DNA of 64,000 bases from a virus. A program made the position numbers and the translations under genes. Of this stretch, positions 1,721 through 20,994 are shown one piece after another (position 1 is the first letter of the stretch; each line of letters opens with the position of its first letter). The notes below the pieces were generated by a model. It saw only the letters and a list, made by a program, of their open reading frames with translations. It was not told the DNA's origin and did not search any database. Location: positions 31,728 to 95,727 of the IMG/VR virus record IMGVR_UViG_3300027996_000011. The stretch is one strand, 5' to 3'.

Positions 1721-3163
1721 ATGTCATTATCAGTAGTATTCAGTTCAAAAGAAATAAATAAAGATTTTATAGAGTTAATAAAAAAAACCTCTGGGGTACA
1801 TAAAATAGAAATTTTACCATATGAAAATCCAGGAAAATATTCTTTAACTGATGTCTACAATATGGGTTTGAAGGACTCAAAAAATGACATAGTTTTATTT
1901 TGTCATGACGATATTAAGTTTGATACTAAAAATTGGGGTAGAAAGTTACTTAAACATTTTGAAAAAAGTGATTATGGTATATTAGGTGTTGCTGGATGTA
2001 GGTATTTACCTGAATCTGGAAAATGGTGGGAAATACCATCAGAAATGATGGGTCAGGTTTACCACGAAAATGATGGTAAAAGATGGTTATCAACATATAA
2101 CCCTAAATTTGGTAATAATATATTACCCTCTGTTTTAGTTGATGGGTTATTTTTTGCTGTTAATAAGAATAACTTATCTAGGGATTTTGACGAGTCCGTT
2201 AGGGGGTTCCATTTTTATGATTTAAACTTCTGTGTACAAAACTTCTTGTCTGGTGTTAAAATTGGTGTTATCTCTAATATTGACATTACCCACTTATCTA
2301 TTGGTCAAACTAATCAAGAATGGGAAAGGAATAGGATTTTATTTAGTGAAAAGTATAGTGATAGTTTACCATTAATGGTTAGCTTAGTTATGCCCGAATT
2401 AAAACCTAAAAAAAGTAGTCCTTTAGTTTCTATTATAATTCCTGTTTATAATTATGGAAAAACTTTAGATAGGGCAATAACTTCAGTATTTTCCCAAACC
2501 TATAAAAATTTAGAAATTATTATAATAGATGATGGGTCTACAGATAATTTTACAAAGTTAAAACTTAAAAATTTAAAATTACCAAATACTAAAATCATAT
2601 TTCAAGAAAATGGAGGCCCTTCTAAAGCTAGGAATGAAGGTATAAAAATTTCTAGTGGTGAATATATTTTACCTTTGGATTCTGATGATTTGATGCACCC
2701 TACTTACGTAGAACAGTGTATAAAAATTATAACTACAGATAAAAAATATAGCCCTATATATTGTGATACAGTACATGAGGGACAAATGAGGGGTATAGAA
2801 AAAAGGCCTGAGTGGAGTAAAGAAAGATTAATTAATGGCCCTTTTATCGTTAATTGTTCTATGTTTAGTAGAGAAGCTTTTGATTCTATAAATGGTTATG
2901 ACGAAGAACTAAAAGGTTGGGAGGATTACGACATGTGGTTACGAATGATGCAAGAAGGTTATGTGGGTAAAAGAATCCCAAACCCTTTATTTATTTATTT
3001 CCACCATGAAAGTGAAGGGACGGTATCCACTATAGCAAATCAAGATACTAAATCACTACACGAAAAAATATTAATAAAAAACAAGTTAATAACTGACCCA
3101 GCTAAAACATCTATTTACACTCCTTTAACGAATAATAACACATCATTTAATTCATTTGTATAA
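1721..3163 (+). CDS. Two-domain GT-A glycosyltransferase (GT2-like + GT2)
   Basis: N-domain FCHDDI and GFHFYD; C-domain VSIIIPVYN, DDGSTD, SKARNEG, LDSDD, WEDYDMW. Confidence 0.9.
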   Translation: MSLSVVFSSKEINKDFIELIKKTSGVHKIEILPYENPGKYSLTDVYNMGLKDSKNDIVLFCHDDIKFDTKNWGRKLLKHFEKSDYGILGVAGCRYLPESGKWWEIPSEMMGQVYHENDGKRWLSTYNPKFGNNILPSVLVDGLFFAVNKNNLSRDFDESVRGFHFYDLNFCVQNFLSGVKIGVISNIDITHLSIGQTNQEWERNRILFSEKYSDSLPLMVSLVMPELKPKKSSPLVSIIIPVYNYGKTLDRAITSVFSQTYKNLEIIIIDDGSTDNFTKLKLKNLKLPNTKIIFQENGGPSKARNEGIKISSGEYILPLDSDDLMHPTYVEQCIKIITTDKKYSPIYCDTVHEGQMRGIEKRPEWSKERLINGPFIVNCSMFSREAFDSINGYDEELKGWEDYDMWLRMMQEGYVGKRIPNPLFIYFHHESEGTVSTIANQDTKSLHEKILIKNKLITDPAKTSIYTPLTNNNTSFNSFV

Positions 3164-3166
3164 AAT

Positions 3167-3862
3167 ATGGAAACACTAACAGTATTATGTTCAAACTACA
3201 ATTCAGATAGGTGGATTGATAACTACTTATTGTCACTTAACAACCAACTTCTTAAGGAGTTTACTATTATATTTGTTGACGCAAATTCTACTGACCACTC
3301 ACTTAAAACAATTAAAAATTATAAATTTAGAGAAGGTATCACCAAAAAAATTATAGAAAACGATAAAAGAATTACGATTTACGAAGCTTGGAATATGGCT
3401 ATAGAGGCTAGTAAAAGTGAGTTTGTAATTAATTTTAATACTGATGATAGATTGTTTCCCGGTGCCTTACTAACCCTATACCATTATATGGTACAAAATC
3501 CAAATGTTGACATTGCTTATGGTACTAGTTTAATTGTTGGTGATGAGGACCATAATAATATTAGAGGAATACAGAATTGGCCGGAACATAGCCACGAAAT
3601 ATTATTACAAAATTGTATTTGTGGACCATTTCCAATAGTAAAAAAATCAGTACTTGTAAATAATGGATTATTTAACCCAAAATATACTATATCAGGTGAT
3701 TATGAAATGTGGTTAAGACTATCTAAAAGAAATTACAAATTTAAAAAAATAATTGACTTTTTAGGTTCATACTACGACAACCCTAAAGGGGTTAGTTCCG
3801 ATAAATCCACACTACAAGAACACATAAAACAAGATACTGAAATAAGAAATTTACATAGATGA
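3167..3862 (+). CDS. GT2 glycosyltransferase
   Basis: DANSTD, YEAWNMAI, NTDDR, GDYEMWLR. Confidence 0.9.
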   Translation: METLTVLCSNYNSDRWIDNYLLSLNNQLLKEFTIIFVDANSTDHSLKTIKNYKFREGITKKIIENDKRITIYEAWNMAIEASKSEFVINFNTDDRLFPGALLTLYHYMVQNPNVDIAYGTSLIVGDEDHNNIRGIQNWPEHSHEILLQNCICGPFPIVKKSVLVNNGLFNPKYTISGDYEMWLRLSKRNYKFKKIIDFLGSYYDNPKGVSSDKSTLQEHIKQDTEIRNLHR

Positions 3863-4545
3863 AAAAATTAATCTGTTATAGTTTGTGGGGTGATAACCCT
3901 AGATATACTGAAGGAGCTATTAGAAATGCTGAATTAGCTAAAGTAGTATATCCTGATTGGATTTGTAGGTTTTATGTTGGTAATTGTGTTCCGATTGATA
4001 TAATGAATAGATTAACTTCTTTTGATAATGTTGAAATAGTTGAGATGGGTGTTGTTGGTGATTGGACTGGTATGTTTTGGCGTTTTACCGCTGCTAGTGA
4101 TAAAGATGTTAGTATTATGTTATCTAGAGATACTGATAGTAGATTAACTTTACGGGAAAAGTATTCTGTGGATGAGTGGTTAAATAGTAAGTTTAGTTTT
4201 CATATTATGAGAGACCACCCTTATCATTCTACCGAAATTTTAGGTGGTATGTGGGGTGTTAAAGGTGACATATTAGACGGTATAAGTAATTTAATAACTG
4301 ATTATGTAAAAGGTGATTTTTGGCAAGTAGACCAGAATTTTTTAAGAGAAAAAATTTGGCCTTTAGTTAAAGAAAATTCTTTTACTCACGATGAATTCTT
4401 TAGTCATGTTTTTGGTCCTGCTAACCCATATAAATTTAAAAGAGACCCCAAACACTTTATTGGTCAAGCTTACGATGGTGATGATAAAATATTAGACGAT
4501 AATGTATATTTTAATGATTACTTAGATAAGTCTAAAAAAATATAA
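3859..4545 (+). CDS. Putative GT-A glycosyltransferase
   Basis: YSLWG...Y..GA..N, MFWRF, SRDTDSR (DxD), MRDHP.H, GGMWG, DQ.FL pattern; lies inside the glycan locus. Confidence 0.65.
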   Translation: MKKLICYSLWGDNPRYTEGAIRNAELAKVVYPDWICRFYVGNCVPIDIMNRLTSFDNVEIVEMGVVGDWTGMFWRFTAASDKDVSIMLSRDTDSRLTLREKYSVDEWLNSKFSFHIMRDHPYHSTEILGGMWGVKGDILDGISNLITDYVKGDFWQVDQNFLREKIWPLVKENSFTHDEFFSHVFGPANPYKFKRDPKHFIGQAYDGDDKILDDNVYFNDYLDKSKKI

Positions 4546-4549: not shown

Positions 4550-5377
4550 ATGAGAGTTTACGCAAATATAATGACAAAAAATGAGGAGCTACTACTAAAC
4601 GAACTACTCCCAATATGGAATAACTACCCAGTAGAAAAATTTATCTTTTATAACGATAATTCTACAGACGGTAGCGTTAACCTTATAAAATCCTACTTAG
4701 GTGATAGAGCTGTTATTCTTAATGATAATTTAGAAGAATTTAATGAATCACACAATAGGTCTAGAATGTTAGAATATAGTAGAGAAGATGGGGCTACTCA
4801 TGTTATAGCTTTTGATTGTGACGAATTACTCTCAAATAATACTATAACTAATTTTAATGAGGTTATTAATATGTATGAAACTAAAGACGTTTATCTTTAC
4901 TGGTATAATGTTGTAAATAACACTTTAAGTGAGACTAGGAATGACCCTTCTTACATACATAACTATCGTAGTTTTATATTACCACTTAAAAATACTGGTA
5001 AATTTAACTTAGCTTTATGGAAATACCACACACCTAGAACACCACAAATCAACCTACCTAAAAGCACAACTAAAGATTATGGTGTTATACACCTACAATC
5101 AATTAATACAAAATTTTACGCCTTAAAACAATTATGGTATAAACACTATGAGTATGTTAAATATAACCACCCGGTAACATTTATTAATCAAAGATATGAC
5201 CCAGTAATTAATAATTTAAATTTTATGTCTGTACAAACACCAGAAGAAATTCTTGGTGATATAAAATTTGACCACACGGTATATGATAAGATGTGTGAAC
5301 ATAAAGGATATTTAAAATTTATAAAAGAAAATTATAATAGTGAGTTAGTTACTTTTGGTTCTGAGTTTTTAGATTAA
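4550..5377 (+). CDS. GT2-like glycosyltransferase
   Basis: KNEE, NDNSTDGS, FDCDE (DxD) motifs. Confidence 0.8.
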   Translation: MRVYANIMTKNEELLLNELLPIWNNYPVEKFIFYNDNSTDGSVNLIKSYLGDRAVILNDNLEEFNESHNRSRMLEYSREDGATHVIAFDCDELLSNNTITNFNEVINMYETKDVYLYWYNVVNNTLSETRNDPSYIHNYRSFILPLKNTGKFNLALWKYHTPRTPQINLPKSTTKDYGVIHLQSINTKFYALKQLWYKHYEYVKYNHPVTFINQRYDPVINNLNFMSVQTPEEILGDIKFDHTVYDKMCEHKGYLKFIKENYNSELVTFGSEFLD

Positions 5378-5415: not shown

Positions 5416-6042
5416 ATGGACCATCACGATAAACTAAACTTCGAAGAAATCACTAAATTTATTAAAGATGATAGTGTTGTTGTAGATGTTGGGGCACATA
5501 TAGGTGGTTATTGTGATTTTTTTTTAGAGAAGTTGGGTAAGTCAGGTAAAATATACGCTTTAGAAATACACCCAAAGAACTACGCTAGACTGTATAATAA
5601 ATATAAATTATTAAATAATTTAGTTTTGATTCATAAAGCTGCTTCTAATAATGACGGGGTTGAGGATGTGTATCATAACGGTAGTCCCGGACATACCCAA
5701 ACTACTAATATATTAGGTAAAGACACTAATGAAGTAAGTGTGCCTAGAATTGGTTCGATACAGAGTATTAAATTGGACACACTATTACATAATGAAAATA
5801 GTATAGATTTAGTAAAGATTGATGTTGAGGGTGCTGAGATAAAAGTTTTAGAAGGATTATCTAAAATACATAATAGAATTAATCATTTACTTATTGAATG
5901 TCATTTTGATAAGGATTGGGGCAGGATAAAAGACCTTTTACTTAATGAGTATAATTTTTTGTGTTACGATTTAAGTGATAAAAACAATATAGATATTACC
6001 ACTGACAAACGAGCTTATCAGTGTTTATGTAAAAAAAAATAA
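5416..6042 (+). CDS. FkbM-family SAM methyltransferase
   Basis: VDVGAHIG, ALE, KIDVEGAE. Confidence 0.92.
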   Translation: MDHHDKLNFEEITKFIKDDSVVVDVGAHIGGYCDFFLEKLGKSGKIYALEIHPKNYARLYNKYKLLNNLVLIHKAASNNDGVEDVYHNGSPGHTQTTNILGKDTNEVSVPRIGSIQSIKLDTLLHNENSIDLVKIDVEGAEIKVLEGLSKIHNRINHLLIECHFDKDWGRIKDLLLNEYNFLCYDLSDKNNIDITTDKRAYQCLCKKK

Positions 6043-6048: not shown

Positions 6049-6963
6049 ATGAAAAAAGTAATAGTTACAGGAGGGGCTGGATTTATAGGTTCACATTTAG
6101 TGGATAAATTAATATCTAAAGGTGTGACAGTTATTGTATTAGATAACCTATCATCAGGTAAAGAAAAAAATATAAATCCCAAGGCTACACACATAAATGT
6201 GGATTTAAGTACTATGGATACCAAAAAATTTCATTGGGAGTTATATCCTATGAAGTTTTTTAAAAATGTCGACACCGTTTTTCATTTGGCAGCTACACCA
6301 CAAGTACAATATTCCATAGAGAACCCAACAGATAACAATAATTTAGACTCTTTAATTAATATTTTAGATTTAAGTAGGGTTATAGAAGCAAAAAGATTTG
6401 TATTCAGCAGTAGTTCTGCTGTTTATGGTAACCCAACTTACACACCAATAGATGAAAATCACCCACTAAACCCATTAAGTCCTTATGCTCTACACAAATT
6501 AATTGGTGAACAGTATTGTAAACTGTACTCGAACTTGTATAATTTAGATACAGCGTGTTTAAGGTATTTTAATGCATATGGTAATAGAATGCCTAACAAA
6601 GGAGCTTACAGAAGTGTAATATCTATTTTTATGGAACAAACTGAAAAAAAACAACTACTTAATATTGTAAATGACGGTGAACAAAAAAGAGATTTTGTAC
6701 ATGTAGAAGACATTGTCCAAGCAAACATTCTATGTGCTGAATCAAAAAATAATCTTAATGGTGAAATATTTAATGTGGGTACCGGTAAAGCTTTTACTGT
6801 TAATGAAATAGCTAATATGTTTGGTGGTGAAAAAAAATATGGTGAGCTTAGGATTGAACCCAAGGATTCGGTAGCTGAAAACGCAAAAATAATTTTAGAC
6901 TTGGGTTGGTCACCTACGGGAAACTTAAATAATTGGATAAATAAAATATTAAATAATGAATAG
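6049..6963 (+). CDS. NAD-dependent nucleotide-sugar epimerase/dehydratase (extended SDR)
   Basis: TGGAGFIG, SSSSAVYG, YALHK (YxxxK), RYFNAYG, RDFVHV. Confidence 0.93.
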   Translation: MKKVIVTGGAGFIGSHLVDKLISKGVTVIVLDNLSSGKEKNINPKATHINVDLSTMDTKKFHWELYPMKFFKNVDTVFHLAATPQVQYSIENPTDNNNLDSLINILDLSRVIEAKRFVFSSSSAVYGNPTYTPIDENHPLNPLSPYALHKLIGEQYCKLYSNLYNLDTACLRYFNAYGNRMPNKGAYRSVISIFMEQTEKKQLLNIVNDGEQKRDFVHVEDIVQANILCAESKNNLNGEIFNVGTGKAFTVNEIANMFGGEKKYGELRIEPKDSVAENAKIILDLGWSPTGNLNNWINKILNNE

Positions 6964-7606
6964 TAAGACCATATCTTTATGTATTACGTGTTATGATGGT
7001 GATTATCATTTACTTAATACATTATTAAATGAGTGTAAAAAACAAACTGTACCACCTAATGAGATTATAATATCTTCTAGTGGTTTGGGTAGTGAATCTT
7101 TGTTAGGTATTGGTATGATAAAAATAAAAGGAGTGGAGGTGCCGATTATTAGTGTGAATTTTTTAGATAGACATTCTGAAGGTAGAGCAAGAAATGAAGG
7201 CGGTTTAAAATCAAATATGGACATTATACAGTTTTTTGATGTAGATGATACCCCACACCCCCAAAGAATAGAAATAACCAAAAAAATATTCGAGACTACT
7301 AATTGTGACGCTTTAGTCCACAGTTACCAAACTAATAATAAAGGGTTTGAGTCTTTAACTTTTACACCTTCTAAAGTTTTTGATTGTAGGTGGAACCCTG
7401 ATAATGGTTTGGGTGGTGGCCAACTTATAGCTAACAAAGAATGTAATATAGCTCATGGCCCTATAACAATAAAAAAAGAGATTTCAGAAAGTATAAAATA
7501 CACTTTTGATAGTAGAGCTGCGGATTGTAAATTTGCTGGCAAATTAATGGAAAATAACTATAAAGTATTTTATTATGATGATATATTAATGAATTATAAT
7601 TTATAA
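6956..7606 (+). CDS. GT2-like glycosyltransferase
   Basis: QTVPPNEII, ARNEG, FFDVDD, HPQRIE. Confidence 0.75.
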   Translation: MNSKTISLCITCYDGDYHLLNTLLNECKKQTVPPNEIIISSSGLGSESLLGIGMIKIKGVEVPIISVNFLDRHSEGRARNEGGLKSNMDIIQFFDVDDTPHPQRIEITKKIFETTNCDALVHSYQTNNKGFESLTFTPSKVFDCRWNPDNGLGGGQLIANKECNIAHGPITIKKEISESIKYTFDSRAADCKFAGKLMENNYKVFYYDDILMNYNL

Positions 7607-7607: not shown

Positions 7608-8363
7608 ATGGAAAACTACACTACATACTGTTGGTGGACAGGTGATAACGAACTATCAGAAAATAGAAAAAAGTCCTTAGAGACCATGAAAATAGCACCT
7701 GGGGGTAATATTGTCTTCATAGATAAGGACAATTTAAAAGATTATATATTACCGGAATCCCCATTACATGAAGGGTACCATTACCTTTCACCAATCCAAA
7801 AAGGTGATTATTTAAAATGTTATTTTATGCATCATTATGGTGGTGGTTATAGTGATATAAAACAAACTTCTAAACCGTGGACTGAATACTTTGATAGGTT
7901 AAATGAAAATAAAGATTTGTACGCTATAGGGTATGGTGAAAGGGAACCAAATCATGTAGCTTGTCTAGAAGATTGTAGGTTAGACCCTCAAGAATCAATT
8001 AAATGTAGAACCAACACACTTAGTGAAGATGGTAAATCGTGGACATCCCAACACCTAAGAAATAACTGGACTAAGTTAATTGGTTGTGGGTTAATGATTT
8101 GTAGAAAAAATACACCTTTTACTCGTGACTGGTGGGAAGCTTTAAATGAAAAAATGGATGGATACCTAGAAGAATTAAAAAAGTACCCCTCTCAATGGCC
8201 TCGAGATTCTCATAACCATGTAAACCCTAATACTGGTGAAAAATCTAAATATCCAATTGCGTGGGCGGTATTACACGGACATGTATATCATCCACTAACT
8301 TTAAAACACCATAAAAATATAGACCAGGATTTAACCTACCCTGTAATGAGTAATTACCAATAA
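7608..8363 (+). CDS. GT32-like (DxD sugar-binding) glycosyltransferase
   Basis: GDYLKCYFMHHYGGGYSDIK resembles the SD..R...LY.YGG.Y.D motif. Confidence 0.7.
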   Translation: MENYTTYCWWTGDNELSENRKKSLETMKIAPGGNIVFIDKDNLKDYILPESPLHEGYHYLSPIQKGDYLKCYFMHHYGGGYSDIKQTSKPWTEYFDRLNENKDLYAIGYGEREPNHVACLEDCRLDPQESIKCRTNTLSEDGKSWTSQHLRNNWTKLIGCGLMICRKNTPFTRDWWEALNEKMDGYLEELKKYPSQWPRDSHNHVNPNTGEKSKYPIAWAVLHGHVYHPLTLKHHKNIDQDLTYPVMSNYQ

Positions 8364-14013: not shown

Positions 14014-15164
14014 ATATACCATTAGTCAAAAATACAATAAATAAAGAAGATATAGATAAATTAATAGAGTGGTTAAAAACGTACCCTAGATTAACTAAAG
14101 GCGATTTAACAATAGAGTTTGAACAGTTATGGTCTAAATTTATGGGTGTAAAGCATTCTATTTTTGTTAATTCTGGTTCTTCTGCTAATCTAGTTATGGT
14201 TTATGCGTTAATAGAATCAGGTATTTTAAAAATAGGTGATGATATTATAATACCTTCACTATCCTGGTCTACAAGTTTAGCACCAGCTATACAGTTTGGA
14301 CTTAACCCAGTTTTATGTGATTGTAATAAGGAAGATTTATCGGTAGATTTAGAGCATCTGGTGTCTTTAATTAAAGATAGACAACCTAAATGTATGATGA
14401 TTGTACCTATATTAGGTCTAGTACCACAAATGGATAAAATAATGGATATCTGTGAAAAATATAACGTTGTTTTAATTGAGGATGCTTGTGAGTCTTTAGG
14501 TTCTAAATTTAATGATAAAAAATTAGGTTCTTTTGGGTTAATGTCGACTTTTTCAACTTATTTTGGTCATCACATATCTACTATCGAAGGTGGTATGGTT
14601 TGTACTAATGATGATGATTTTGCTAACTTATTAAAATCACTTAGAAGTCATGGTTGGGCTAGAGACATGGATACAAATGCTCAAGAAAAATTACGTAAAG
14701 AATATAATGTGGATGATTTTAATACACAATATACTTTTTACCACACTGGATTTAATTTACGGTCCACCGACCTTCAGGCTTTTCTTGGTATAGGTCAATT
14801 AGAAAAATTACCTATGGTGGTAAAAAATAGGTGTGATAATTTTAAACTATATTATGAATTATTGGATGACTCTTTTTGGAAACCAAAGCTAAGAGACACT
14901 GATTACATTTCAAATTTCGCTTTTCCAATAATACACGAAAAAAGAAATGAGTTAGTAAAACTATTAAATGATAATAATATAGAAAACAGACCATTACTAG
15001 CTGGTTCTTTAGGTAAACAACCCTATTGGTATAAAAAATATGGTATAAATAAGTTACCTAATGTAGATGATATAGATACCTTTGGATTATATCTACCTAA
15101 TAATCACGAAATGTCAGAAGAAGAAATAAAAAAAGTTTGTAACGTCTTAAACTCCATAGTATAA
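14010..15164 (+). CDS. colD: GDP-4-keto-6-deoxy-D-mannose 3-dehydratase (ColD-like)
   Basis: VNSGSSANL, EDACES, STYFGHHISTIEGG with His replacing the PLP Lys, SHGW, GFNLR; adjacent to gmm/gmd/fcl. Confidence 0.8.
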   Translation: MNIPLVKNTINKEDIDKLIEWLKTYPRLTKGDLTIEFEQLWSKFMGVKHSIFVNSGSSANLVMVYALIESGILKIGDDIIIPSLSWSTSLAPAIQFGLNPVLCDCNKEDLSVDLEHLVSLIKDRQPKCMMIVPILGLVPQMDKIMDICEKYNVVLIEDACESLGSKFNDKKLGSFGLMSTFSTYFGHHISTIEGGMVCTNDDDFANLLKSLRSHGWARDMDTNAQEKLRKEYNVDDFNTQYTFYHTGFNLRSTDLQAFLGIGQLEKLPMVVKNRCDNFKLYYELLDDSFWKPKLRDTDYISNFAFPIIHEKRNELVKLLNDNNIENRPLLAGSLGKQPYWYKKYGINKLPNVDDIDTFGLYLPNNHEMSEEEIKKVCNVLNSIV

Positions 15165-15607
15165 TGAGTGAGGCAAAACCAATACCCCAAGACTTATATA
15201 ATGAAATTTTGAGTACCATGCCTATAATTTGTGTAGATGGGATTATACAAAAAGGGGATGAGACACTTTTATTATTAAGGGATAATGAACCTGAAAAAGG
15301 TAAATGGTGGTTTCCTGGTGGTCGTGTTTTAAAAGGTGAAAGATTGGAAGATGCTATTATTAGAAAGATAAAAGAGGAGACTGGTTTACTTTGTGAAGTT
15401 TTAGAAATGTTAGACATCACCCAAACATCATTTACAACAGGACCTAATGATATACCAGTACACACAATTAATGTCTGCTTTACTTTAAAAATAAAAAGTG
15501 GTGTCGTATCTCTAGATAGTGAACATAATGAGTATGGTTGGTTTACAGAAGCTCCAGAGACCGCACATTCAGTAATAAAATATATTTTTAAAAAATTAAA
15601 AAAATGA
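15164..15607 (+). CDS. gmm: GDP-mannose mannosyl hydrolase-like Nudix
   Basis: PIICVD, LRDNEP, WFPGGRVLKGE, REIKEETG-type Nudix box, LDSEH. Confidence 0.8.
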   Translation: MSEAKPIPQDLYNEILSTMPIICVDGIIQKGDETLLLLRDNEPEKGKWWFPGGRVLKGERLEDAIIRKIKEETGLLCEVLEMLDITQTSFTTGPNDIPVHTINVCFTLKIKSGVVSLDSEHNEYGWFTEAPETAHSVIKYIFKKLKK

Positions 15608-16578
15608 AAACAGCACTAATAACAGGTATTAACGGTCAGGATGGTTCTTATCTTGCTGAATTTTTATTGGATAAGGGTTATGAGGTTTGGGGTATACTAA
15701 AACGTAATTCTGTGGCCGAAAATCAAACAGCTAGAATACCAGATAATATTTTTAAAGAGTTGAATTTAGTTTATGGTGATTTAACTGACCTTTCGTCTAT
15801 AATAAGTGTAATTCAAAAATGTGTACCTGATGAAATTTATAATCTAGCTGCACAATCTCATGTTAGGATTAGTTTTGACCAACCAATATATACTTCTAAT
15901 GTAACTGGTCTAGGTGTTTTAAATTTACTAGAAGCTGTTAGATTAACTGACCCTAAAATTAAAGTATACCAAGCCAGTTCTTCAGAAATGTTTGGTAATA
16001 GTATTGATGAGGATGGGTACCAACGAGAGACCACACCACTTAACCCTGTTTCACCATATGGTTGTGCTAAGGTTTTTGGTTACAACATATGTAGAAATTA
16101 TAGAAACTCGTATAATATGTTCATTTCTAATGGTATTTTATTTAACCACGAATCACCTAGAAGAGGAATTAATTTTGTAACAAATAAAGTCGCGAAAGAG
16201 GCTGTAAAAATAAAATTGGGGTTGTCTGATGAATTAAAATTAGGTAATTTAGATGCTAGTCGGGATTGGGGTCACGCTAAAGATTACGTTGAAGCGATGT
16301 GGTTAATGTTACAACAGGATAAACCTGGTGATTATGTTTGTTCGACTGGTGTTTCTCATAGTGTAAAAGACTTGGTAGAGTACGTGTTCAACTCATTAGG
16401 GTTGGATTGGTCCAAATATGTATCTGTGGATGAAAAATATCTTAGACCCGAAGAACTAAAACACTTAAAAGGTGATTGTTCTAAAATTAAAAAGGATTTG
16501 GGTTGGTCACCTAATTATAACTTCGAGTCTATGATGGACGAGATGATTGAGTATTGGGTAGAATATTATGAAAAATAA
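15604..16578 (+). CDS. gmd: GDP-mannose 4,6-dehydratase
   Basis: TGINGQDGSYLAE, NLAAQSHV, QASSSE, SPYGCAK, FNHESPRRG, RDWGHA. Confidence 0.98.
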   Translation: MKTALITGINGQDGSYLAEFLLDKGYEVWGILKRNSVAENQTARIPDNIFKELNLVYGDLTDLSSIISVIQKCVPDEIYNLAAQSHVRISFDQPIYTSNVTGLGVLNLLEAVRLTDPKIKVYQASSSEMFGNSIDEDGYQRETTPLNPVSPYGCAKVFGYNICRNYRNSYNMFISNGILFNHESPRRGINFVTNKVAKEAVKIKLGLSDELKLGNLDASRDWGHAKDYVEAMWLMLQQDKPGDYVCSTGVSHSVKDLVEYVFNSLGLDWSKYVSVDEKYLRPEELKHLKGDCSKIKKDLGWSPNYNFESMMDEMIEYWVEYYEK

Positions 16579-17482
16579 TTTAGTTACTTTAGTTACTGGT
16601 GGTAGTGGGTTAGTTGGTTCTTCAATAACCGGTAACACCCTTAAGGTTGGTAGTAGTTTTGATTTACGAGATACATCTGTAACCAATAAACTATTTTCGG
16701 ACCTACAACCAGATAATGTTATACATTGTGCTGGTAGGGTAGGTGGTTTAGGTGGTAATATGAATATGAAGGGAGAATTTTTCTACGATAACATAATGAT
16801 TAATACTAATGTTATAGAATCATGTAGGAAATACGGTGTAAAAAAATTAGTTTGTTTTTTATCTACTTGTGTGTTCCCTAATGATGTTGAGTATCCACTG
16901 ACTGAAAAGAAAATTCATTTGGGTCCACCACACACCTCAAACGATGCTTACTCATATGCAAAACGTATGGCTGATATACAAATTCGTGCATACAGAGAAC
17001 AATACGGTCTTAATTACGTATCAGTTATACCAACTAACATATATGGACCTAACGATAATTTTGATTTGGTTAATGGGCATGTTGTGCCTTCATTAATTCA
17101 TAAATGTTATTTGGCTAAAAAAAATAACACACCTTTTAAAATATGGGGTAGTGGTAAACCTTTAAGAGAATTTATTTTTTCTAAAGATGTAGGAAAATTA
17201 ACAGAATGGGTTTTAAAAAACTATGAAGAGGAAGAACCTATTATATTTTCTACCTCACAAGAAGTTTCAATAAGAGATGTGGTTGGTTTGATTGTTAAAC
17301 ACATGTCTTTTACTGGTGACGTAGTTTGGGAGGATGATAAACCTGATGGACAATTTAGAAAACCTAGTGATAATAGTAAATTATTATCTTACTTACCGGA
17401 TTTTAAATTTACTAGTTTAGATAAAGGTTTAAAAGAAACTATAGATTGGTTTATAGATAATTATGAAAATTGTAGAAAATAA
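16568..17482 (+). CDS. fcl: GDP-L-fucose synthase / GDP-colitose synthase (Fcl/ColC) epimerase-reductase
   Basis: TGGSGLVG, VGGLGGN, LSTCVFP, YSYAKR, PTNIYGPNDNF, HVVP, GSGKPLREF, KPDG. Confidence 0.93.
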   Translation: MKNNLVTLVTGGSGLVGSSITGNTLKVGSSFDLRDTSVTNKLFSDLQPDNVIHCAGRVGGLGGNMNMKGEFFYDNIMINTNVIESCRKYGVKKLVCFLSTCVFPNDVEYPLTEKKIHLGPPHTSNDAYSYAKRMADIQIRAYREQYGLNYVSVIPTNIYGPNDNFDLVNGHVVPSLIHKCYLAKKNNTPFKIWGSGKPLREFIFSKDVGKLTEWVLKNYEEEEPIIFSTSQEVSIRDVVGLIVKHMSFTGDVVWEDDKPDGQFRKPSDNSKLLSYLPDFKFTSLDKGLKETIDWFIDNYENCRK

Positions 17483-17500: not shown

Positions 17501-18238
17501 ATGGGAAGAAGAAGTAAAAAATTAAGTAGAGATGAACAACAAGAAGTAGAAGAGTGGATTTACCAAAATAACACTGAAGAAATTAGAATGACTGACACTA
17601 TGACCATAAATGTTAAGTGTAAAACAGAAAATCAAAAATCCTTAGTAAATTCTATAAAAGAAAAAGAAGTAACTATATGTTCTGGTCCAGCTGGAACGGG
17701 TAAAACATTTTTAGCTTGTGCCGAGGCTTTAAAATTAATTAAAAGATATGCAAAATATAAAAAGATTGTAATTGTAAAGTCAGTTACCACCCTAAAGAAT
17801 GAAGAAATTGGTTTTTTAAAAGGTAATTTAAGGGAGAAGATGGAACCGTTTATGTTTTCTTTTGTTCATAATTTTGAGAAGATTGTGGGACAAGCTATAA
17901 CATCAAGACTTAGGGAGTTAAAAACTATAGAAGAAATGCCTATCGCGTATATGAGGGGTATTAATCTAGATAAGTCAATTATAATTATAGATGAGGCTCA
18001 AAATATATCTCAAGAAAATATGAGGACAATACTAACTAGGTTAGGTAAGGATTCTAAAATGATATTCTTAGGTGATGAAAGACAACAAGATTCTAAAGGT
18101 GGTAATGGATTAACTTTTTTAATGGACCATTTTTCACACATTGATGAAATTGGGTGTGTCCAATTTAACAAATCTGATGTGGTTAGAAATCCATTAATAG
18201 CAAAAATAGAAAGAGTTTTTGATTCTTTACAAAAATAA
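17501..18238 (+). CDS. phoH: PhoH-family ATPase
   Basis: GPAGTGKT, IGFLKG, YMRG, DEAQN, LTRLG, GD..Q.D, DVVRN. Confidence 0.95.
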   Translation: MGRRSKKLSRDEQQEVEEWIYQNNTEEIRMTDTMTINVKCKTENQKSLVNSIKEKEVTICSGPAGTGKTFLACAEALKLIKRYAKYKKIVIVKSVTTLKNEEIGFLKGNLREKMEPFMFSFVHNFEKIVGQAITSRLRELKTIEEMPIAYMRGINLDKSIIIIDEAQNISQENMRTILTRLGKDSKMIFLGDERQQDSKGGNGLTFLMDHFSHIDEIGCVQFNKSDVVRNPLIAKIERVFDSLQK

Positions 18239-18259: not shown

Positions 18260-18838
18260 ATGAAAATTAGTGTAAATATAAATGGTGTACTTAGAAACGT
18301 ACTTTTAAAATTTCAACAGGTTTATGAGAAATACGAAGATAGGGATGTTAAGTCCGATGTCATCACACCAAACCTTATGGAATACACTCATTTTGACGAT
18401 GAAGAAAAACTATACAATTTTTTATATCAGGAAGCACCCATGGAGATATTTGGACAAGCTAAAGAAACATTCATTAATGTTATTTCTCACTTAGTAGAAC
18501 TTTACAAAAATATGCCATCTGATTATAAATTAAGGGTTGTAAGTGATGATTTAGGTAAAGCTAAACCCGCTACATTATGGTTTTTAGCAAAATATGGTTT
18601 AGTTTGTGATGAAATAGTATTTTACAACACAAAGACCTTAGAAAACATTTGGGACAATACTGATGTTTTTATAACAAGTGATGTTGATGTTATTGAGTCT
18701 AAGCCAAAAAATAAAAAATTAATAGTTGTTGACCAATCGTATAATAATTCATATGATTGTGACTTACGAATAACTAATTTAAAAGAATTAGATACATTAA
18801 ATATAGAAGATATATGGCGATTAAAAGAGATACATTAA
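18260..18838 (+). CDS. HAD-fold 5'(3')-nucleotidase-like protein with degenerate motif I
   Basis: ISVNINGVLRN aligns with I.IDIDGVLRD; ATLWFL..YG and SYN elements; catalytic Asp residues replaced by Asn. Confidence 0.6.
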   Translation: MKISVNINGVLRNVLLKFQQVYEKYEDRDVKSDVITPNLMEYTHFDDEEKLYNFLYQEAPMEIFGQAKETFINVISHLVELYKNMPSDYKLRVVSDDLGKAKPATLWFLAKYGLVCDEIVFYNTKTLENIWDNTDVFITSDVDVIESKPKNKKLIVVDQSYNNSYDCDLRITNLKELDTLNIEDIWRLKEIH

Positions 18839-19116
18839 CTAATTTAAAGTTAAATGTTGGTAATGAACGTCTTTACTTAGACGTTGATGAGATGCTGGGT
18901 AATGTGGAAATATTTACCCGTGACAAAGAAGGTAGAGATATCATTGAATTGAACTTACCAAAATTTGAATTTTTTAAAATGATGTTAGATACGGTTTGTA
19001 ATACTGTAGAAGATGTAGATGATAATTTGGGTGTGGTGTCCTTAAATAAATTACCTGTTTCGTCTAAATTGGCGATTAACACCTTAATAAAATATAAAAT
19101 AATAAAAAAATTATAA
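18814..19116 (+). CDS. Hypothetical protein
   Basis: 100-aa ORF in operon. Confidence 0.7.
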   Translation: MAIKRDTLTNLKLNVGNERLYLDVDEMLGNVEIFTRDKEGRDIIELNLPKFEFFKMMLDTVCNTVEDVDDNLGVVSLNKLPVSSKLAINTLIKYKIIKKL

Positions 19117-19122: not shown

Positions 19123-20184
19123 ATGGAACAACAATTAACTCAATTAGAGAACGGTTTAAAAAAAATTAAAAACAAAGAGAGTATGATTTATTTCTTAACT
19201 CAAGACACTAATGGGACTGCATCTGCTTCTGTTGCAAATACCTATCAGTATGTAAAATACCTAAGAGAAGCTGGTTACAAAGCAGAAATCTTGTATGAAA
19301 AGAAAGACTATAAAGGTGTGGGTGAATGGTTAGGTTCAGAATACACTGAATTACCACATTGTACTATAGAGGATGGTGAATTAAAAGTTGGTCCAGCAGA
19401 TGTTGTTGTGGTACCAGAATTGTACGGCCATGTATTAGAACAAATAACAAATATGCCTTGTACCAAAATAATGTTTAGTCAAGCTTATGATTACATTTTA
19501 GAAACTTTAAATCCTGGTTTTGGTTGGTCTAATTACGGTGTTACTAAATGTATAACAACATCTGATGCCCAAAAAGAAGAAATTAAAAAATTATTTCCAA
19601 CTGTAGAATCAACAGTAATCACACCCTCAATCCCAAGTTATTTTAAACCAAGTGAAAAACCTAAAAAGCCAATGATTGCTGTACATACTAGAGACCAAAG
19701 GGATACTATGAAGATTATTAAATCTTTTTACCTACAAAACCCACAATTTAAATGGATTACATTTAGAGATATGAGAGGTTTATCTAGAGAAGAATTTGCT
19801 AAAAATTTAGGTGAAGCATGTGCATCAATATGGGTGGATAGAATATCTAGTTTTGGTACTTTCCCATTGGAGTCTATGATGTGTAATACACCTTGTATCG
19901 GAACGCTTCCTATTATGAAACCTGAATGGTTAACTGAAGAGAATGGTATATGGGTTTTTGACGAATCTAAGGTTGTTGAGGTTATAGCTGGATTCTTAAA
20001 GAATTGGTTGGAGGATTCCGTACCAGTAAATTTATATGAAAAAATGAAAAAAACTACCGAAATGATATCGGAAGATAAAGAATCTAAGGAAGTGGTGAAA
20101 TTCTTTGACACTTTATTTGGTGAAAAATCTGTGGAGTTTGATTCCGCAATAAATAAACTTACACCTGTAAGTGAAAACTCTTAA
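19123..20184 (+). CDS. GT-B (GT4-like) glycosyltransferase
   Basis: VVVPE, SSFGTFPLESMMCNTPCIG (variant of E-x-FG-x3-LEAM). Confidence 0.8.
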   Translation: MEQQLTQLENGLKKIKNKESMIYFLTQDTNGTASASVANTYQYVKYLREAGYKAEILYEKKDYKGVGEWLGSEYTELPHCTIEDGELKVGPADVVVVPELYGHVLEQITNMPCTKIMFSQAYDYILETLNPGFGWSNYGVTKCITTSDAQKEEIKKLFPTVESTVITPSIPSYFKPSEKPKKPMIAVHTRDQRDTMKIIKSFYLQNPQFKWITFRDMRGLSREEFAKNLGEACASIWVDRISSFGTFPLESMMCNTPCIGTLPIMKPEWLTEENGIWVFDESKVVEVIAGFLKNWLEDSVPVNLYEKMKKTTEMISEDKESKEVVKFFDTLFGEKSVEFDSAINKLTPVSENS

Positions 20185-20196
20185 AAAAATATTAAA

Positions 20197-20994
20197 ATGA
20201 ATAGTAAAGACATTACAATTATACTTCCGGTACACGATGTATCTGACGATTTTAACAACTGGTTTCCTAAATCTCTTAAAAGTTTAGAACAATCACAAGC
20301 AAAACCAGGTAAACTATTAATAGTTTGTGCTGAAAATAACTCCATAAAAGAATACATGAGCTCTTTAGAAAATACTACTGGTATCGATACTGAAATTGTG
20401 TACAATGATGGTGACACAACATATTGTGGACAAATTAATTTAGGTGTGTCCAAATGTAAGACTGAATACATTTCAGTATTAGAGTACGATGATGAATATT
20501 CTAATATTTGGTTTAAACAGTTTGATTTGTATGTGCCACATTATAAAGACGTAGATATATTTTTACCTTTGGTAGTAGATACTGACCAAGTAGGTCAATT
20601 TTTAGGTTTTACTAATGAAGCTTTATGGGCTATGGGATTCTCAGAAGAAATTGGATTTCTAGATAATAATACCTTATTAAAATATCAAAATTTCCAAGTT
20701 AGTGGTATGATTATGAGAAAGGATAAATTTGAGGAGATTGGTGGTTTAAAAGCTTCTATGAAACTTACTTTTAATTACGAATTTTTATTACGTGCTACTT
20801 ACAATGACACTACTATTATGACAATACCTAAAATAGGTTATAAGCATGTAAACCAAAGAGACAAGTCCTTATTTTGGAATTATAAATTTAAAGACGATTT
20901 AAAAATTGGCCAGGACGAAGCTAAGTTCTGGGTGGAAACAGCTAAAAAAGAATATTTTTTCACTAAAGATAGACAGGTTGAATTTGAGGGGTAA
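20197..20994 (+). CDS. GT2 glycosyltransferase
   Basis: ITIILPVH, QINLG, LEYDDEY, IGGL, YEFLLR. Confidence 0.8.
   Translation: MNSKDITIILPVHDVSDDFNNWFPKSLKSLEQSQAKPGKLLIVCAENNSIKEYMSSLENTTGIDTEIVYNDGDTTYCGQINLGVSKCKTEYISVLEYDDEYSNIWFKQFDLYVPHYKDVDIFLPLVVDTDQVGQFLGFTNEALWAMGFSEEIGFLDNNTLLKYQNFQVSGMIMRKDKFEEIGGLKASMKLTFNYEFLLRATYNDTTIMTIPKIGYKHVNQRDKSLFWNYKFKDDLKIGQDEAKFWVETAKKEYFFTKDRQVEFEG

What the first reader, a model, noticed from the sequence alone, without database searches (positions are those of the whole stretch)
1721..20994. 19-kb phage glycan-building locus with no export or polymerase genes
Seen: about 10 glycosyltransferases from several families (GT2, GT32-like, GT47-like, GT4-like), 3 methyltransferases, an LmbE deacetylase, an epimerase and nucleotide-sugar enzymes, mostly with overlapping stop/start codons. 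No Wzx, Wzy, ABC exporter, lipid-carrier priming transferase or membrane protein is present, and the last GT overlaps the late sigma gene. Inference: a soluble cytoplasmic pathway building a complex methylated oligosaccharide on a phage substrate (virion proteins or DNA), not host O-antigen conversion.
Basis: partly seen in the sequence, partly recalled or inferred. Interest (0 to 1): 0.8.

Follow-up and report, generated by a model that had tools for sequence, protein, structure and literature searches.

The report
Export-less sugar-building island in jumbo phage
A large uncultured marine phage carries about 19 kb of soluble sugar-building genes framed by three sugar-transferase domains shared by its whole lineage; similar clusters are known in ocean cyanophages, and what the sugars are attached to (most likely the phage's own particle proteins) is still untested.

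Summary
Window 1721-20994 is one co-directional, gap-free array with about 10-11 glycosyltransferase genes, two firm FkbM methyltransferases (one more weak), a PIG-L/LmbE deacetylase, an SDR epimerase and a GDP-mannose block (Gmd, ColD-like 3-dehydratase, perosamine-synthase-like transaminase, Fcl/ColC-like reductase, NUDIX). None of these proteins is a polytopic membrane protein. Priming transferase, Wzx and Wzy/WaaL families are absent from ten related records, three of them 91-100% complete.

New here: the locus has two layers. All nine relatives compared share the frame dUTPase, GT-A domain, [island], PhoH, HAD, 100-aa ORF, GT-B, GT2, sigma-like gene. The 4-22 genes in the middle differ between phages but are always sugar enzymes. 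The core GT-B is closest to AmGGT/Agt, soluble enzymes that extend glycans on oligosaccharides or glycopeptides.

The kind is known: cyanophage S-SCSM1 has a similar export-less cluster, read in the literature as host cell-wall modification. The substrate is unresolved: phage proteins about 0.45, host envelope about 0.3, DNA about 0.05. The scan had already noted this stretch in another window. Moderate interest.

The parts
311..318 (+). Late-promoter-like octamer TATTTATA, the only one on the + strand upstream of the locus. It is not conserved in the closest relative.
1106..1711 (+). dUTPase; the conserved left flank of the island in all 9 phages compared.
   Evidence: Pfam dUTPase E 5e-24; cluster 1
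1721..3163 (+). Two-domain glycosyltransferase. The N-terminal Glyco_tranf_2_5 domain (residues ~8-217) is a lineage core; the C-terminal GT2 domain varies between phages.
   Evidence: best solved relative is chondroitin polymerase K4CP, E 7e-36; invariant residues lie only in the N-terminal domain
3167..3862 (+). GT2 glycosyltransferase (variable island).
   Evidence: Pfam E 3e-16
3859..4545 (+). Probable GT-A glycosyltransferase with no Pfam match.
   Evidence: ESM Atlas 0.99 to viral 'hexosyltransferase/glycosyltransferase' clusters; TM 0.92 to the N-terminus of viral GT2 proteins; dN/dS 0.20
4550..5377 (+). GT2-type glycosyltransferase (Glyco_tranf_2_4).
5416..6042 (+). FkbM-family methyltransferase; a sugar O-methyltransferase type (RfbT-like).
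   Evidence: Pfam Methyltransf_21 E 3e-18
6049..6963 (+). SDR nucleotide-sugar epimerase/dehydratase (GalE-like; below the equivalog cut-offs).
6956..7606 (+). GT2 glycosyltransferase.
7608..8363 (+). GT32-like transferase (Caps_synth, at the cut-off).
8366..8926 (+). Possible methyltransferase (weak match).
   Evidence: Methyltransf_31 E 0.0015, below the cut-off
8923..9504 (+). FkbM methyltransferase; the only locus gene missing from the closest relative.
9504..10106 (+). PIG-L/LmbE-type de-N-acetylase.
   Evidence: Pfam 30.4 bits against a cut-off of 28.2
10103..10810 (+). Unknown protein found only in viral clusters.
   Evidence: no Pfam or NCBIfam match; atlas; dN/dS 0.04
10803..11639 (+). 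Possible exostosin/RXYLT1-like transferase (weak match).
   Evidence: RXYLT1_C E 1.7e-4, below the cut-off
11647..12555 (+). GT32 glycosyltransferase with the DXD region.
   Evidence: Gly_transf_sug E 8e-11
12552..12938 (+). DUF6165 protein of unknown role.
12877..14013 (+). GDP-perosamine-synthase-like PLP aminotransferase; the catalytic Lys is kept.
   Evidence: best solved relatives 3DR7/3BN1/3DR4 (perosamine synthetase), E 1e-72
14010..15164 (+). ColD-like GDP-4-keto-6-deoxymannose 3-dehydratase; His-His stands in place of the aminotransferase Lys.
   Evidence: best solved relative ColD 2GMS, E 4e-61, with the alignment at the active site; RfbH is the best NCBIfam match
15164..15607 (+). 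NUDIX hydrolase, GDP-mannose mannosyl hydrolase-like.
15604..16578 (+). GDP-mannose 4,6-dehydratase (Gmd).
   Evidence: TIGR01472 412 bits (cut-off 415), Pfam E 2e-121; 73-76% identical to Saprospiraceae Gmd
16568..17482 (+). Fcl/ColC-like GDP-4-keto-6-deoxyhexose epimerase/reductase.
   Evidence: GDPFucSynFcl E 1e-67, below the equivalog cut-off
17501..18238 (+). PhoH-like ATPase; start of the conserved right flank.
   Evidence: present in 71 related loci
18260..18838 (+). HAD/NT5C-like phosphatase; lineage core.
   Evidence: NT5C E 6e-4, below the cut-off; 78 loci
18814..19116 (+). Conserved acidic ~100-aa protein of unknown role; lineage core.
19123..20184 (+). Core retaining-type GT-B glycosyltransferase of the AmGGT/Agt family.
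   Evidence: PDB 8XSG: E 3.5e-13 (single sequence) and 7e-17 (profile); AF2 pLDDT 89.9; Foldseek TM 0.76 against <=0.63 for other GT-B enzymes; 79 loci; 1947 homologues
20197..20994 (+). Core GT2 (GT-A) glycosyltransferase; its stop shares one base with the next gene's start.
20994..21698 (+). Sigma-like protein (region-2-like segment); right border of the frame.
   Evidence: Sigma70_r2 E 0.004; hhalign against T4 gp55 E 0.011
21704..21711 (+). Late-promoter-like octamer TATTTATA, 11 nt before the next gene. It marks the start of the following late block.

Best explanation
The locus is a phage-owned, fully soluble glycan assembly line with two layers.

The frame (shown). Every member of this jumbo-phage lineage has it: the N-terminal GT-A domain of gene 1721-3163, the AmGGT/Agt-like GT-B 19123-20184, and the GT2 20197-20994.

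The island (shown). It differs between phages, much as sugar loci differ between bacterial serotypes, and supplies rare donors and decorations. In this phage those are GDP-colitose and/or GDP-fucose and GDP-perosamine made from host GDP-mannose, extra transferases, O-methylation and de-N-acetylation.

The mechanism (inferred). The frame lays down a common inner glycan in the cytoplasm, the island enzymes elaborate it, and the acceptor is one or more phage-made proteins, most plausibly outward-facing virion proteins glycosylated before or during assembly. This is the mode of chloroviruses, mimiviruses and some mycobacteriophages.

Shown: the enzyme families, the donor chemistry at the level of active-site signatures, solubility, the lack of lipid-carrier and export genes, the core/variable architecture, and purifying selection. 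Inferred: the acceptor, the order of steps and the timing.
For: 1. Enzyme assignments. ColD-like His-His and a Lys-bearing perosamine-synthase-like enzyme sit next to Gmd, Fcl/ColC and NUDIX.
2. No polytopic membrane protein among 210 island ORFs of 9 phages. Bac_transf, Glycos_transf_4, Wzx and Wzy_C are absent from 10 records, including 3 that are 91-100% complete, and the control genomes did match. Bacterial O-antigen loci normally carry a wzx that matches their own sugar unit (my own knowledge). Here the islands vary freely with no flippase at all, which argues against a flipped product.
3. The frame genes are present in about 70-80 of about 80 related loci, in fixed order beside the late-gene block. 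The middle is almost wholly genome-specific yet always made of sugar enzymes. Core status fits a phage function better than an optional host-metabolism gene.
4. The core GT-B is closest, by sequence and by fold, to AmGGT. Its homologue ApAgt extends glucose on cytoplasmically N-glycosylated peptides (PMC12159676).
5. dN/dS is 0.04-0.21 for 21 genes, the unknowns included.
6. A lead only: an [ST][GA]xT motif is over-represented (z 4.4-9.8) in four large proteins, none of which I identified as a virion protein. One of them is the 501-aa protein of the adjacent late block, where the excess persists across homologues.
Against: - No glycan chemistry exists for any member, and no protein-priming transferase was identified. 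GT41 NGT is absent.
- The transferase families, colitose and perosamine are classic O-antigen features.
- The literature reads the analogous cyanophage clusters as host cell-wall or LPS modification (PMC9602691).
- Timing is unresolved. No late motif lies within 319-21703, and the one at 311 is not kept in the closest relative. The array is also contiguous with a sigma-like gene that, if it is the late sigma, must be made before late genes.
- The AmGGT match is distant (about 20% identity), and AmGGT itself prefers free oligosaccharides.
- The motif enrichment may be purely structural.
Confidence: 0.45

Rival explanations
1. Host envelope remodelling. The soluble phage transferases act at the inner face of the membrane on a host undecaprenyl-linked acceptor primed by a host enzyme. 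Host Wzx or an ABC transporter, plus a ligase or O-oligosaccharyltransferase, then put the altered glycan on LPS or on Bacteroidota surface glycoproteins. The effect would be to block superinfection or progeny loss on debris.
For: - GT2/GT32 transferases, FkbM methyltransferases, Gmd, ColD, Per and Fcl are typical O-antigen genes.
- The nearest cellular Gmd-Fcl pair lies in Saprospiraceae genomes.
- O-antigen transferases are commonly soluble, so a lack of membrane spans does not discriminate.
- The same reading is given for the S-SCSM1, P-SSM2 and S-SSM7 clusters.
- Hypervariability is what selection by competing phages would produce.
Against: - Not one priming, flipping, polymerising or ligating gene occurs in 10 records, although the islands differ greatly. 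Host flippases would have to accept many foreign units.
- Three transferase domains are lineage-core in fixed synteny, which is unusual for optional host-modifying genes.
- Replacing surface glycan within one lytic cycle is slow (inference).
- The core GT-B groups with a soluble-acceptor family.
Confidence: 0.3
2. DNA hypermodification. The transferases build sugars on a modified base of phage DNA, as in T4 (glucosyl-hmC), RB69/DLP3 (arabinosyl-5hoC) or the MT/TET-dependent clusters.
For: - T4-like phages do carry sugar-nucleotide genes and transferases for DNA, up to trisaccharides (PMC13326640; bioRxiv 10.1101/2023.12.21.572611).
- The frame sits among nucleotide-metabolism-type genes (dUTPase, NT5C-like, PhoH).
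- In T4, a-gt lies near gene 55.
Against: - Thymidylate-synthase-family genes occur in only 2 of 10 records and are missing from a 93%-complete, island-bearing genome.
- No Tet_JBP match was found, but the control was silent, so this point is weak.
- The methyltransferases are of the FkbM sugar type, not DNA methyltransferases.
- The core GT-B profile shows no relation to T4 alpha-glucosyltransferase (probability 0.14%).
- About 10 transferases plus methyl, amino and dideoxy sugars far exceed any known DNA glycan.
Confidence: 0.05
3. A free cytoplasmic glycan or a glycosylated small molecule. Examples of the type are mycobacterial polymethylated polysaccharides or a K4CP-type polymer made without export, acting inside the infected cell or released at lysis.
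For: - Soluble transferases plus methyltransferases without exporters also describe methylmannose and methylglucose polysaccharide pathways. A methylmannose polysaccharide mannosyltransferase is the third fold hit of the core GT-B.
- AmGGT elongates free oligosaccharides (PMC12159676).
- The first gene resembles the bifunctional polymerase K4CP.
Against: - No primer-forming enzyme or obvious benefit is identified.
- Serotype-like hypervariability is hard to explain for an internal metabolite that no outside partner sees.
- The fold hit is generic (TM 0.56).
Confidence: 0.08
4. Two unrelated functions that happen to be neighbours. The three frame transferases serve one conserved phage task. The variable middle is a recombination hotspot collecting host-derived sugar genes with a separate, optional role.
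For: - The frame and the island have sharply different conservation.
- Some near-complete relatives have only 4-6 island genes.
- Island gene clusters are shared in mosaic fashion between non-sister phages.
Against: - The island always lies between the frame transferases and is always made of sugar enzymes, with overlapping reading frames across the borders. This is simplest if they form one pathway.
Confidence: 0.1

Closest known systems
'LPS / cell-wall modification' gene clusters of large T4-like cyanophages (Synechococcus phage S-SCSM1 ORF113-135; also P-SSM2 and S-SSM7, as cited in PMC9602691)
   Same: - A large marine myovirus with a co-directional block of about 17 kb.
- The block holds Gmd, Fcl, a NUDIX GDP-mannose hydrolase elsewhere in the genome, about 9 glycosyl/fucosyltransferases and 2 methyltransferases.
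- No exporter, polymerase or priming gene is annotated.
- Gmd is found in 89 deposited phage records, 64 of them cyanophages. A DegT homologue lies next to Gmd in ACG-2014f.
- The substrate is untested there too.
   Different: - A different phage lineage: TerL <=29% identical to any deposited phage, and no deposited homologue of the frame transferases.
- Probably a Bacteroidota rather than a cyanobacterial host.
- Here a conserved three-transferase frame around a hypervariable middle is documented.
- The ColD and perosamine-synthase branches are not described for the cyanophages.
Virus-encoded virion glycosylation of giant viruses (chlorovirus PBCV-1 capsid glycans; Megavirinae fibril glycans; reviews PMC9614988, PMC5408694)
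   Same: - The virus itself encodes soluble transferases, methyltransferases and GDP-sugar enzymes (GMD and others).
- There is no ER-type or lipid-carrier route.
- A conserved inner glycan carries clade-specific outer decoration (my own knowledge of those reviews).
   Different: - Eukaryotic hosts and unrelated virions.
- There the glycans were determined chemically. Here nothing is measured.
Mycobacteriophage virion glycosylation (Freeman et al. 2023, as cited in PMC12619734 and PMC11256854)
   Same: A tailed phage encodes its own transferases, and glycans sit on capsid and tail-tube subunits.
   Different: - There only 1-3 transferase genes beside the structural genes, in Actinobacteria hosts.
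- Here about 10 transferases plus donor synthesis.
- No sequence relation was tested, because that paper is not held in the library.
Actinobacillus Agt / AmGGT alpha-glucosyltransferases (PDB 8XSG; PMC12159676)
   Same: The core GT-B 19123-20184 is a homologue (E 7e-17 with the profile; TM 0.76). Both are soluble, metal-independent GT-B enzymes acting on the non-reducing end of oligosaccharides or of glycopeptides.
   Different: - About 20% identity.
- The partner N-glycosyltransferase (GT41) is absent from the phages.
- Donor and acceptor of the phage enzyme are unknown.
Bacterial O-antigen pathways for colitose (E. coli O55/O111 ColD/ColC) and perosamine (Caulobacter, V. cholerae O1 Per)
   Same: Gmd, a ColD-type His-containing dehydratase, a Per-type transaminase, an Fcl/ColC-type reductase and a Gmm-type NUDIX lie in one block.
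   Different: - No wzx/wzy, wzm/wzt or initiating transferase.
- No N-acyltransferase for perosamine was found.
- The block is carried by a lytic-type phage.
Phage DNA glycosylation clusters (T4 a-gt/b-gt; RB69/DLP3 arabinosyl-5hoC, PMC13326640; MT/5mYOX-dependent clusters, bioRxiv 10.1101/2023.12.21.572611)
   Same: Phage transferases related to LPS or teichoic-acid enzymes, sometimes with sugar-nucleotide genes.
   Different: The defining base-hydroxylating enzyme does not co-occur with the frame. Glycans there are 1-3 sugars.
'Moraphages', large aquatic phages with predicted Bacteroidota hosts (PMC12619734)
   Same: - 200-307 kb aquatic phages with Flavobacteriia-type DnaK, and four putative glycosyltransferase orthogroups among the near-core genes.
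- The present lineage is 272-322 kb, has DnaK in 9 of 10 records, and carries three core transferase genes.
   Different: - Identity of the two lineages could not be tested, because their genomes are not in the collections.
- That paper places moraphages outside the T4 group and gives no analysis of the transferase locus.

Membership tests
Wzx/Wzy- or ABC-transporter-dependent O-antigen/capsule gene cluster | Nucleotide-sugar synthesis genes and several glycosyltransferases in one block | tested here: met
Wzx/Wzy- or ABC-transporter-dependent O-antigen/capsule gene cluster | Initiating polyprenyl-phosphate transferase (WbaP/PglC Bac_transf or WecA/MraY Glycos_transf_4) | tested here: not met
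   0 of 10 records, and the control genomes did match. The host copy could substitute.
Wzx/Wzy- or ABC-transporter-dependent O-antigen/capsule gene cluster | Flippase plus polymerase/ligase (Wzx, Wzy/WaaL) or a membrane ABC exporter | tested here: not met
   Polysacc_synt and Wzy_C are in 0 of 10 records. No polytopic membrane protein among 210 island ORFs. ABC permease families were not searched genome-wide.
Cyanomyovirus-type export-less glycan ('LPS') cluster | A large myovirus carrying a co-directional block with Gmd/Fcl, many transferases and methyltransferases, and no export genes | tested here: met
   Compared side by side with S-SCSM1.
Cyanomyovirus-type export-less glycan ('LPS') cluster | Descent from the Kyanoviridae clusters (shared synteny or close homology) | tested here: not met
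   No megablast match. The frame transferases have no deposited homologue. Gmd is only 53% identical.
Phage DNA glycosylation system | An enzyme making a hydroxylated or hydroxymethylated pyrimidine (ThyA homologue, or DNA methyltransferase plus TET/JBP) that co-occurs with the transferases | tested here: not met
   ThyA family in 2 of 10 records only. Tet_JBP in 0 of 10, but no control matched, so that half is inconclusive.
Phage DNA glycosylation system | A transferase related to known DNA glucosyltransferases | tested here: not met
   hhalign of the core GT-B profile against T4 a-gt gives probability 0.14%. No DNA glucosyltransferase appears among the listed top fold hits.
NGT/Agt cytoplasmic protein N-glycosylation system | An Agt-type GT-B that extends the glycan | tested here: met
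   Homology to AmGGT (8XSG) by sequence, profile and fold. Activity was not tested.
NGT/Agt cytoplasmic protein N-glycosylation system | A GT41 HMW1C/NGT-type priming enzyme | tested here: not met
   Glyco_transf_41 in 0 of 10 records.
Virus-encoded virion glycosylation (chlorovirus / mimivirus / mycobacteriophage type) | The virus encodes soluble transferases and donor-sugar enzymes independent of host membrane pathways | tested here: met
Virus-encoded virion glycosylation (chlorovirus / mimivirus / mycobacteriophage type) | Glycans covalently attached to virion proteins | not testable with these tools
   Needs virions or recombinant proteins. There is only a motif-enrichment lead.
GDP-colitose pathway (Gmd, ColD, ColC) | A ColD-type PMP-dependent 3-dehydratase with His replacing the Schiff-base Lys | tested here: met
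   Aligned to 2GMS: the query has His-His where ColD has His-His, and the H188N mutant entry 3B8X marks the site.
GDP-colitose pathway (Gmd, ColD, ColC) | A ColC-specific reductase/epimerase as opposed to Fcl | tested here: inconclusive
   16568-17482 matches the Fcl model at 228 bits, below the 500 cut-off. ColC and Fcl were not separated.

The most novel reading that the evidence does not exclude
This uncultured, globally distributed jumbo-phage lineage (probably on Bacteroidota) runs an autonomous cytoplasmic protein-glycosylation system. Three conserved transferase domains would prime and build a common inner glycan on virion proteins. A recombining, serotype-like island would then give each phage strain its own outer glycan (here with colitose, perosamine and methyl sugars). 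That would make it a bacterial-virus counterpart of giant-virus glycan coats, with a new protein-priming enzyme hidden among the frame transferases.
Probability: 0.4. Interest if true: 0.8.

Novelty: new variant of a known kind. Interest (0 to 1): 0.55.

Why it matters
Sugar-gene clusters in marine phages are usually filed as host-metabolism genes that alter host LPS, and this has never been tested. Here the cluster has a lineage-wide core of three transferase domains and a serotype-like variable centre. No lipid-carrier or export gene is present, even in near-complete genomes.

That turns 'what do phage sugar clusters glycosylate?' into a concrete experiment with named candidate enzymes and candidate acceptor proteins.

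If the virions are coated with strain-specific glycans, this would affect:
- how marine phages stick to particles and mucus,
- how they resist proteases and grazers,
- how they are recognised.

It would also add a new soluble protein-glycosylation toolkit, including phage routes to GDP-colitose and GDP-perosamine.

Tried and rejected
1. Close relatives among deposited phages. Megablast of the locus, and tblastn of the 690-aa neighbour, the core GT-B and the core GT2, all gave nothing.
2. DNA-glycosylation reading. Rejected as the main model after the ThyA and TET searches and hhalign against T4 a-gt.
3. NGT/Agt system membership. Rejected because no GT41 is present.
4. Fold of the core GT2. 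It gave only generic GT-A neighbours and said nothing about the acceptor. The BFVD search of the GT-B gave only generic GT-B hits.
5. Timing from promoters.
   - The late octamer TATTTATA precedes structural genes, but none lies properly placed inside any of 9 islands.
   - The one at 311 is absent from the closest relative.
   - Bacteroidota-type -7 motifs occur elsewhere in the window but not before the array.
   - Sigma-70-like and terminator scans were at chance level.
   - Timing stays unresolved.
6. The seven ORFs upstream of the window, and the three small ORFs before dUTPase, gave no informative Pfam match except a CDGSH finger.
7. The conserved 100-aa ORF was inspected as a possible carrier or acceptor. 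Nothing suggestive was found.
8. In the dN/dS script the two DegT and two of the SDR paralogues were mispaired. Those four values are discarded.
9. 'Late sigma'. phmmer and a profile search against PDB found nothing, BLASTP against gp55 found nothing, and hhalign gave only E 0.011.
10. Freeman et al. 2023 could not be read, because it is not held.

Full report
**What the window is.** The window is bases 31728-95727 of a 95.7-kb IMG/VR virus record that CheckV rates about 30% complete.
- It encodes a major head protein (28453-30249), a portal (33866-35701) and a large terminase (35746-37485).
- The terminase is at most 29% identical to anything deposited. The nearest are an uncultured 484-kb phage, Microcystis phage Mel-JY01 and Flavobacterium 'immuto' phages, followed by classical T4-like phages.
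- G+C is an even 29-35% across the window, including the locus.
- The phage is therefore a distant T4-like jumbo myovirus with no cultured relative.

**The observation.** From 1721 to 20994 every ORF is on the + strand. The largest gap is 38 nt and 14 of 25 junctions overlap.

Pfam and NCBIfam give, in order:

| Coordinates | Assignment |
|---|---|
| 1721-3163 | two-domain glycosyltransferase |
| 3167-3862 | GT2 |
| 3859-4545 | no Pfam match; a probable GT-A transferase by the ESM Atlas |
| 4550-5377 | GT2 type |
| 5416-6042 | FkbM methyltransferase |
| 6049-6963 | SDR epimerase |
| 6956-7606 | GT2 |
| 7608-8363 | GT32-like |
| 8366-8926 | weak methyltransferase match |
| 8923-9504 | FkbM methyltransferase |
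| 9504-10106 | PIG-L/LmbE deacetylase |
| 10103-10810 | unknown |
| 10803-11639 | weak RXYLT1-like match |
| 11647-12555 | GT32 |
| 12552-12938 | DUF6165 |
| 12877-14013, 14010-15164 | two DegT-family enzymes |
| 15164-15607 | NUDIX |
| 15604-16578 | Gmd |
| 16568-17482 | Fcl-like |
| 17501-18238 | PhoH |
| 18260-18838 | HAD/NT5C-like |
| 18814-19116 | 100-aa ORF |
| 19123-20184 | GT-B |
| 20197-20994 | GT2 |

The stop of the last GT2 shares a base with the start of a sigma-like gene (20994-21698).

**Sugar chemistry.**
- Protein 14010-15164 is closest to ColD (PDB 2GMS, E 4e-61). It keeps the His-His pair that replaces the Schiff-base lysine in 3-dehydratases.
- Protein 12877-14013 is closest to GDP-perosamine synthase (3DR7/3BN1/3DR4, E about 1e-72) and keeps the lysine.
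- With Gmd, an Fcl/ColC-like reductase and a GDP-mannose-hydrolase-like NUDIX, the block can make GDP-perosamine and GDP-colitose and/or GDP-fucose from host GDP-mannose. This is inferred from the established pathways.
- ColC and Fcl could not be told apart.
- No N-acyltransferase for perosamine was found.

**No membrane machinery.**
- A Kyte-Doolittle scan finds no hydrophobic segment at 1.6 or above in any locus ORF. Among 210 island ORFs of nine phages there is at most one lone segment at 1.5 or above.
- Bac_transf, Glycos_transf_4 (WecA/MraY), Polysacc_synt (Wzx) and Wzy_C (polymerase/ligase) are absent from ten related records. Three of these are 91-100% complete, and the control genomes matched.
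- 'No polymerase' needs one caveat. The best solved relative of the first gene is the two-domain chondroitin polymerase K4CP (E 7e-36).

**Relatives and architecture.**
- The 501-aa protein 26096-27601 has 255 relatives in IMG/VR, on contigs up to 322 kb.
- The core GT-B has 1947 homologues in the large protein collection. Nearly all are unnamed and metagenomic, Tara Oceans included.
- The closest relative keeps the whole locus in order at 70-91% amino-acid identity and lacks only the FkbM gene 8923-9504. dN/dS is 0.04-0.21 for 21 genes (four paralogues were mispaired and are ignored).
- Nine phages share this order: dUTPase, first transferase, variable middle, PhoH, HAD-like, 100-aa ORF, GT-B, GT2, sigma-like gene.
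- The distance from dUTPase to the sigma-like gene ranges from about 8.5 to 24 kb, and the middle holds 4-22 genes.
- Almost every middle gene belongs to a genome-specific cluster. A few clusters are shared in mosaic fashion.
- PhoH, the HAD-like protein, the GT-B and the GT2 occur in 71-79 of the related loci fetched.
- Within the first gene only the N-terminal Glyco_tranf_2_5 domain is invariant.
- The middles of seven relatives (92 ORFs) are again sugar enzymes: 19 SDR epimerases/dehydratases, 7 DegT, 6 GT2, 3 GT11 and 2 NodZ fucosyltransferases, 6 methyltransferases, 2 sulfotransferases, plus HAD, nucleotidyltransferase and kinase domains.
- Near-complete relatives have only 2-5 GT2 matches genome-wide. 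The big island is a trait of this sub-lineage, while the frame is universal.

**The core transferases.**
- The GT-B profile hits one solved protein well: AmGGT of Actinobacillus minor (8XSG). The match is E 7e-17 with the profile and E 3.5e-13 with the single sequence.
- An AlphaFold model (pLDDT 89.9) matches AmGGT at TM 0.76-0.78. Other GT-B enzymes reach at most 0.63.
- AmGGT and its homologue ApAgt are soluble retaining glucosyltransferases. ApAgt extends the glucose that a cytoplasmic N-glycosyltransferase puts on peptides, and AmGGT elongates free oligosaccharides (PMC12159676).
- The partner GT41 enzyme is absent from the phages, so this is not an NGT/Agt system.
- The core GT2 gives only generic GT-A neighbours.

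**What is glycosylated?**

*DNA is unlikely.*
- Known systems need a thymidylate-synthase homologue or a methyltransferase plus TET (PMC13326640; bioRxiv 10.1101/2023.12.21.572611).
- ThyA-family genes occur in only 2 of 10 records and are missing from a 93%-complete genome that has an 18-gene island.
- No Tet_JBP was found, although no control matched either.
- The methyltransferases are of the sugar type.
- The GT-B is unrelated to T4 alpha-glucosyltransferase.

*Host envelope remodelling cannot be excluded.*
- These are O-antigen-type enzymes, and such enzymes are normally soluble.
- Against it: the islands vary freely without any matching flippase, polymerase or ligase, and three transferase domains are lineage core. 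Both fit a cytoplasmic, phage-owned acceptor better.

*Leads towards phage proteins.*
- An [ST][GA]xT motif noted earlier in this scan is over-represented in four large proteins (z 4.4-9.8).
- In the 501-aa late protein one site is kept in 47 of 53 homologues. The other sites turn over, yet the excess persists.
- This is suggestive only.

*My estimate.* Phage proteins about 0.45, host envelope about 0.3, two unrelated functions about 0.1, free glycan about 0.08, DNA about 0.05.

**Timing.**
- The octamer TATTTATA lies 9-30 nt before many structural genes and resembles a T4-type late promoter.
- Around the locus it occurs on the + strand only at 311 and 21704. None is properly placed inside any of nine islands, and the one at 311 is absent from the closest relative.
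- Bacteroidota-type -7 motifs (TAnnTTTG, extended TTTGTAGTA) precede other genes at 45244, 48547 and 61992, but not this array.
- The sigma-like protein is only weakly tied to sigma region 2 and to T4 gp55.
- Expression time is therefore open.

**Host.**
- The -7 motifs point to Bacteroidota.
- The nearest cellular Gmd (73-76%) and adjacent Fcl (60-65%) are in Saprospiraceae genomes whose flanks lack phage genes.
- DnaK is present in 9 of 10 lineage records.

**What is known.**
- Large T4-like cyanophages have the same kind of cluster. S-SCSM1 ORF113-135 holds Gmd, Fcl, a GDP-mannose epimerase, about nine transferases and two methyltransferases, and no exporter is annotated. It is interpreted, without test, as host cell-wall modification, as are the clusters of P-SSM2 and S-SSM7.
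- Gmd occurs in 89 deposited phage records.
- Giant viruses and some mycobacteriophages glycosylate their own virions with their own enzymes (PMC9614988; PMC12619734, citing Freeman 2023).
- The 'moraphage' paper reports four near-core transferase orthogroups in aquatic Bacteroidota jumbo phages. Whether that is this lineage could not be tested.
- The locus is thus a new variant of a known kind. What is new is the conserved frame around a hypervariable island, the lineage-wide absence of carrier and export genes, the Agt-family core enzyme, and the ColD and perosamine branches.

**Limits.**
- Only 30% of this genome is in hand.
- All functional claims rest on homology.
- ABC exporters were not searched genome-wide.
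- The membrane scan is a simple hydropathy test.

Noticed in passing
window 699-878 (+): An unlisted 59-aa ORF with a clear CDGSH iron-sulfur zinc-finger domain (E 1.6e-16), just upstream of the dUTPase. My greedy ORF picker had wrongly chosen an antisense ORF here.
   Followed up: partly
window 43330-45195 (-): A full-length DnaK/HSP70 (E 2e-259). It is present in 9 of 10 related phage records, so it is a lineage-wide chaperone gene.
   Followed up: partly
window 45244, 48547, 61992 (+): Intergenic TAnnTTTG motifs extended to TTTGTAGTA. They look like Bacteroidota-type -7 promoter elements: candidate early promoters and a clue to the host.
   Followed up: partly
window-wide, e.g. 21704, 31815, 35726, 37490, 42543, 58381, 63866: The octamer TATTTATA on the coding strand 9-30 nt before many structural genes, as a T4-type late promoter would be. 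27 copies against about 17.5 expected.
   Followed up: partly
G000 contig 21146-22177, 25358-27544, 12279-15773; window 26096-27601: [ST][GA]xT is 4-14 times over-represented in four large proteins (z 4.4-9.8). In the 501-aa protein one site is kept in 47 of 53 homologues while the others turn over.
   Followed up: partly
window 51299-51707 (+): ARAGORN calls a tmRNA gene with a long tag peptide.
   Followed up: no
window 45375-47414 (+): A 679-aa AAA+ ATP-dependent protease (phrog_4871, E 5e-234) next to DnaK.
   Followed up: no
window 12877-12938: The perosamine-synthase-like ORF, as listed, overlaps the DUF6165 ORF by 62 nt. The true start is probably a later ATG.
   Followed up: no
G005:C1:5332-7607 (relative): The thymidylate-synthase-family gene of one complete relative is split into three pieces in different ORFs. 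This could be an intron, an intein or a homing-endonuclease insertion.
   Followed up: no
phage collection: Gmd homologues also occur in Sulfolobales viruses (Alphaspiravirus) and in one Mycobacterium phage and one Escherichia phage record.
   Followed up: no
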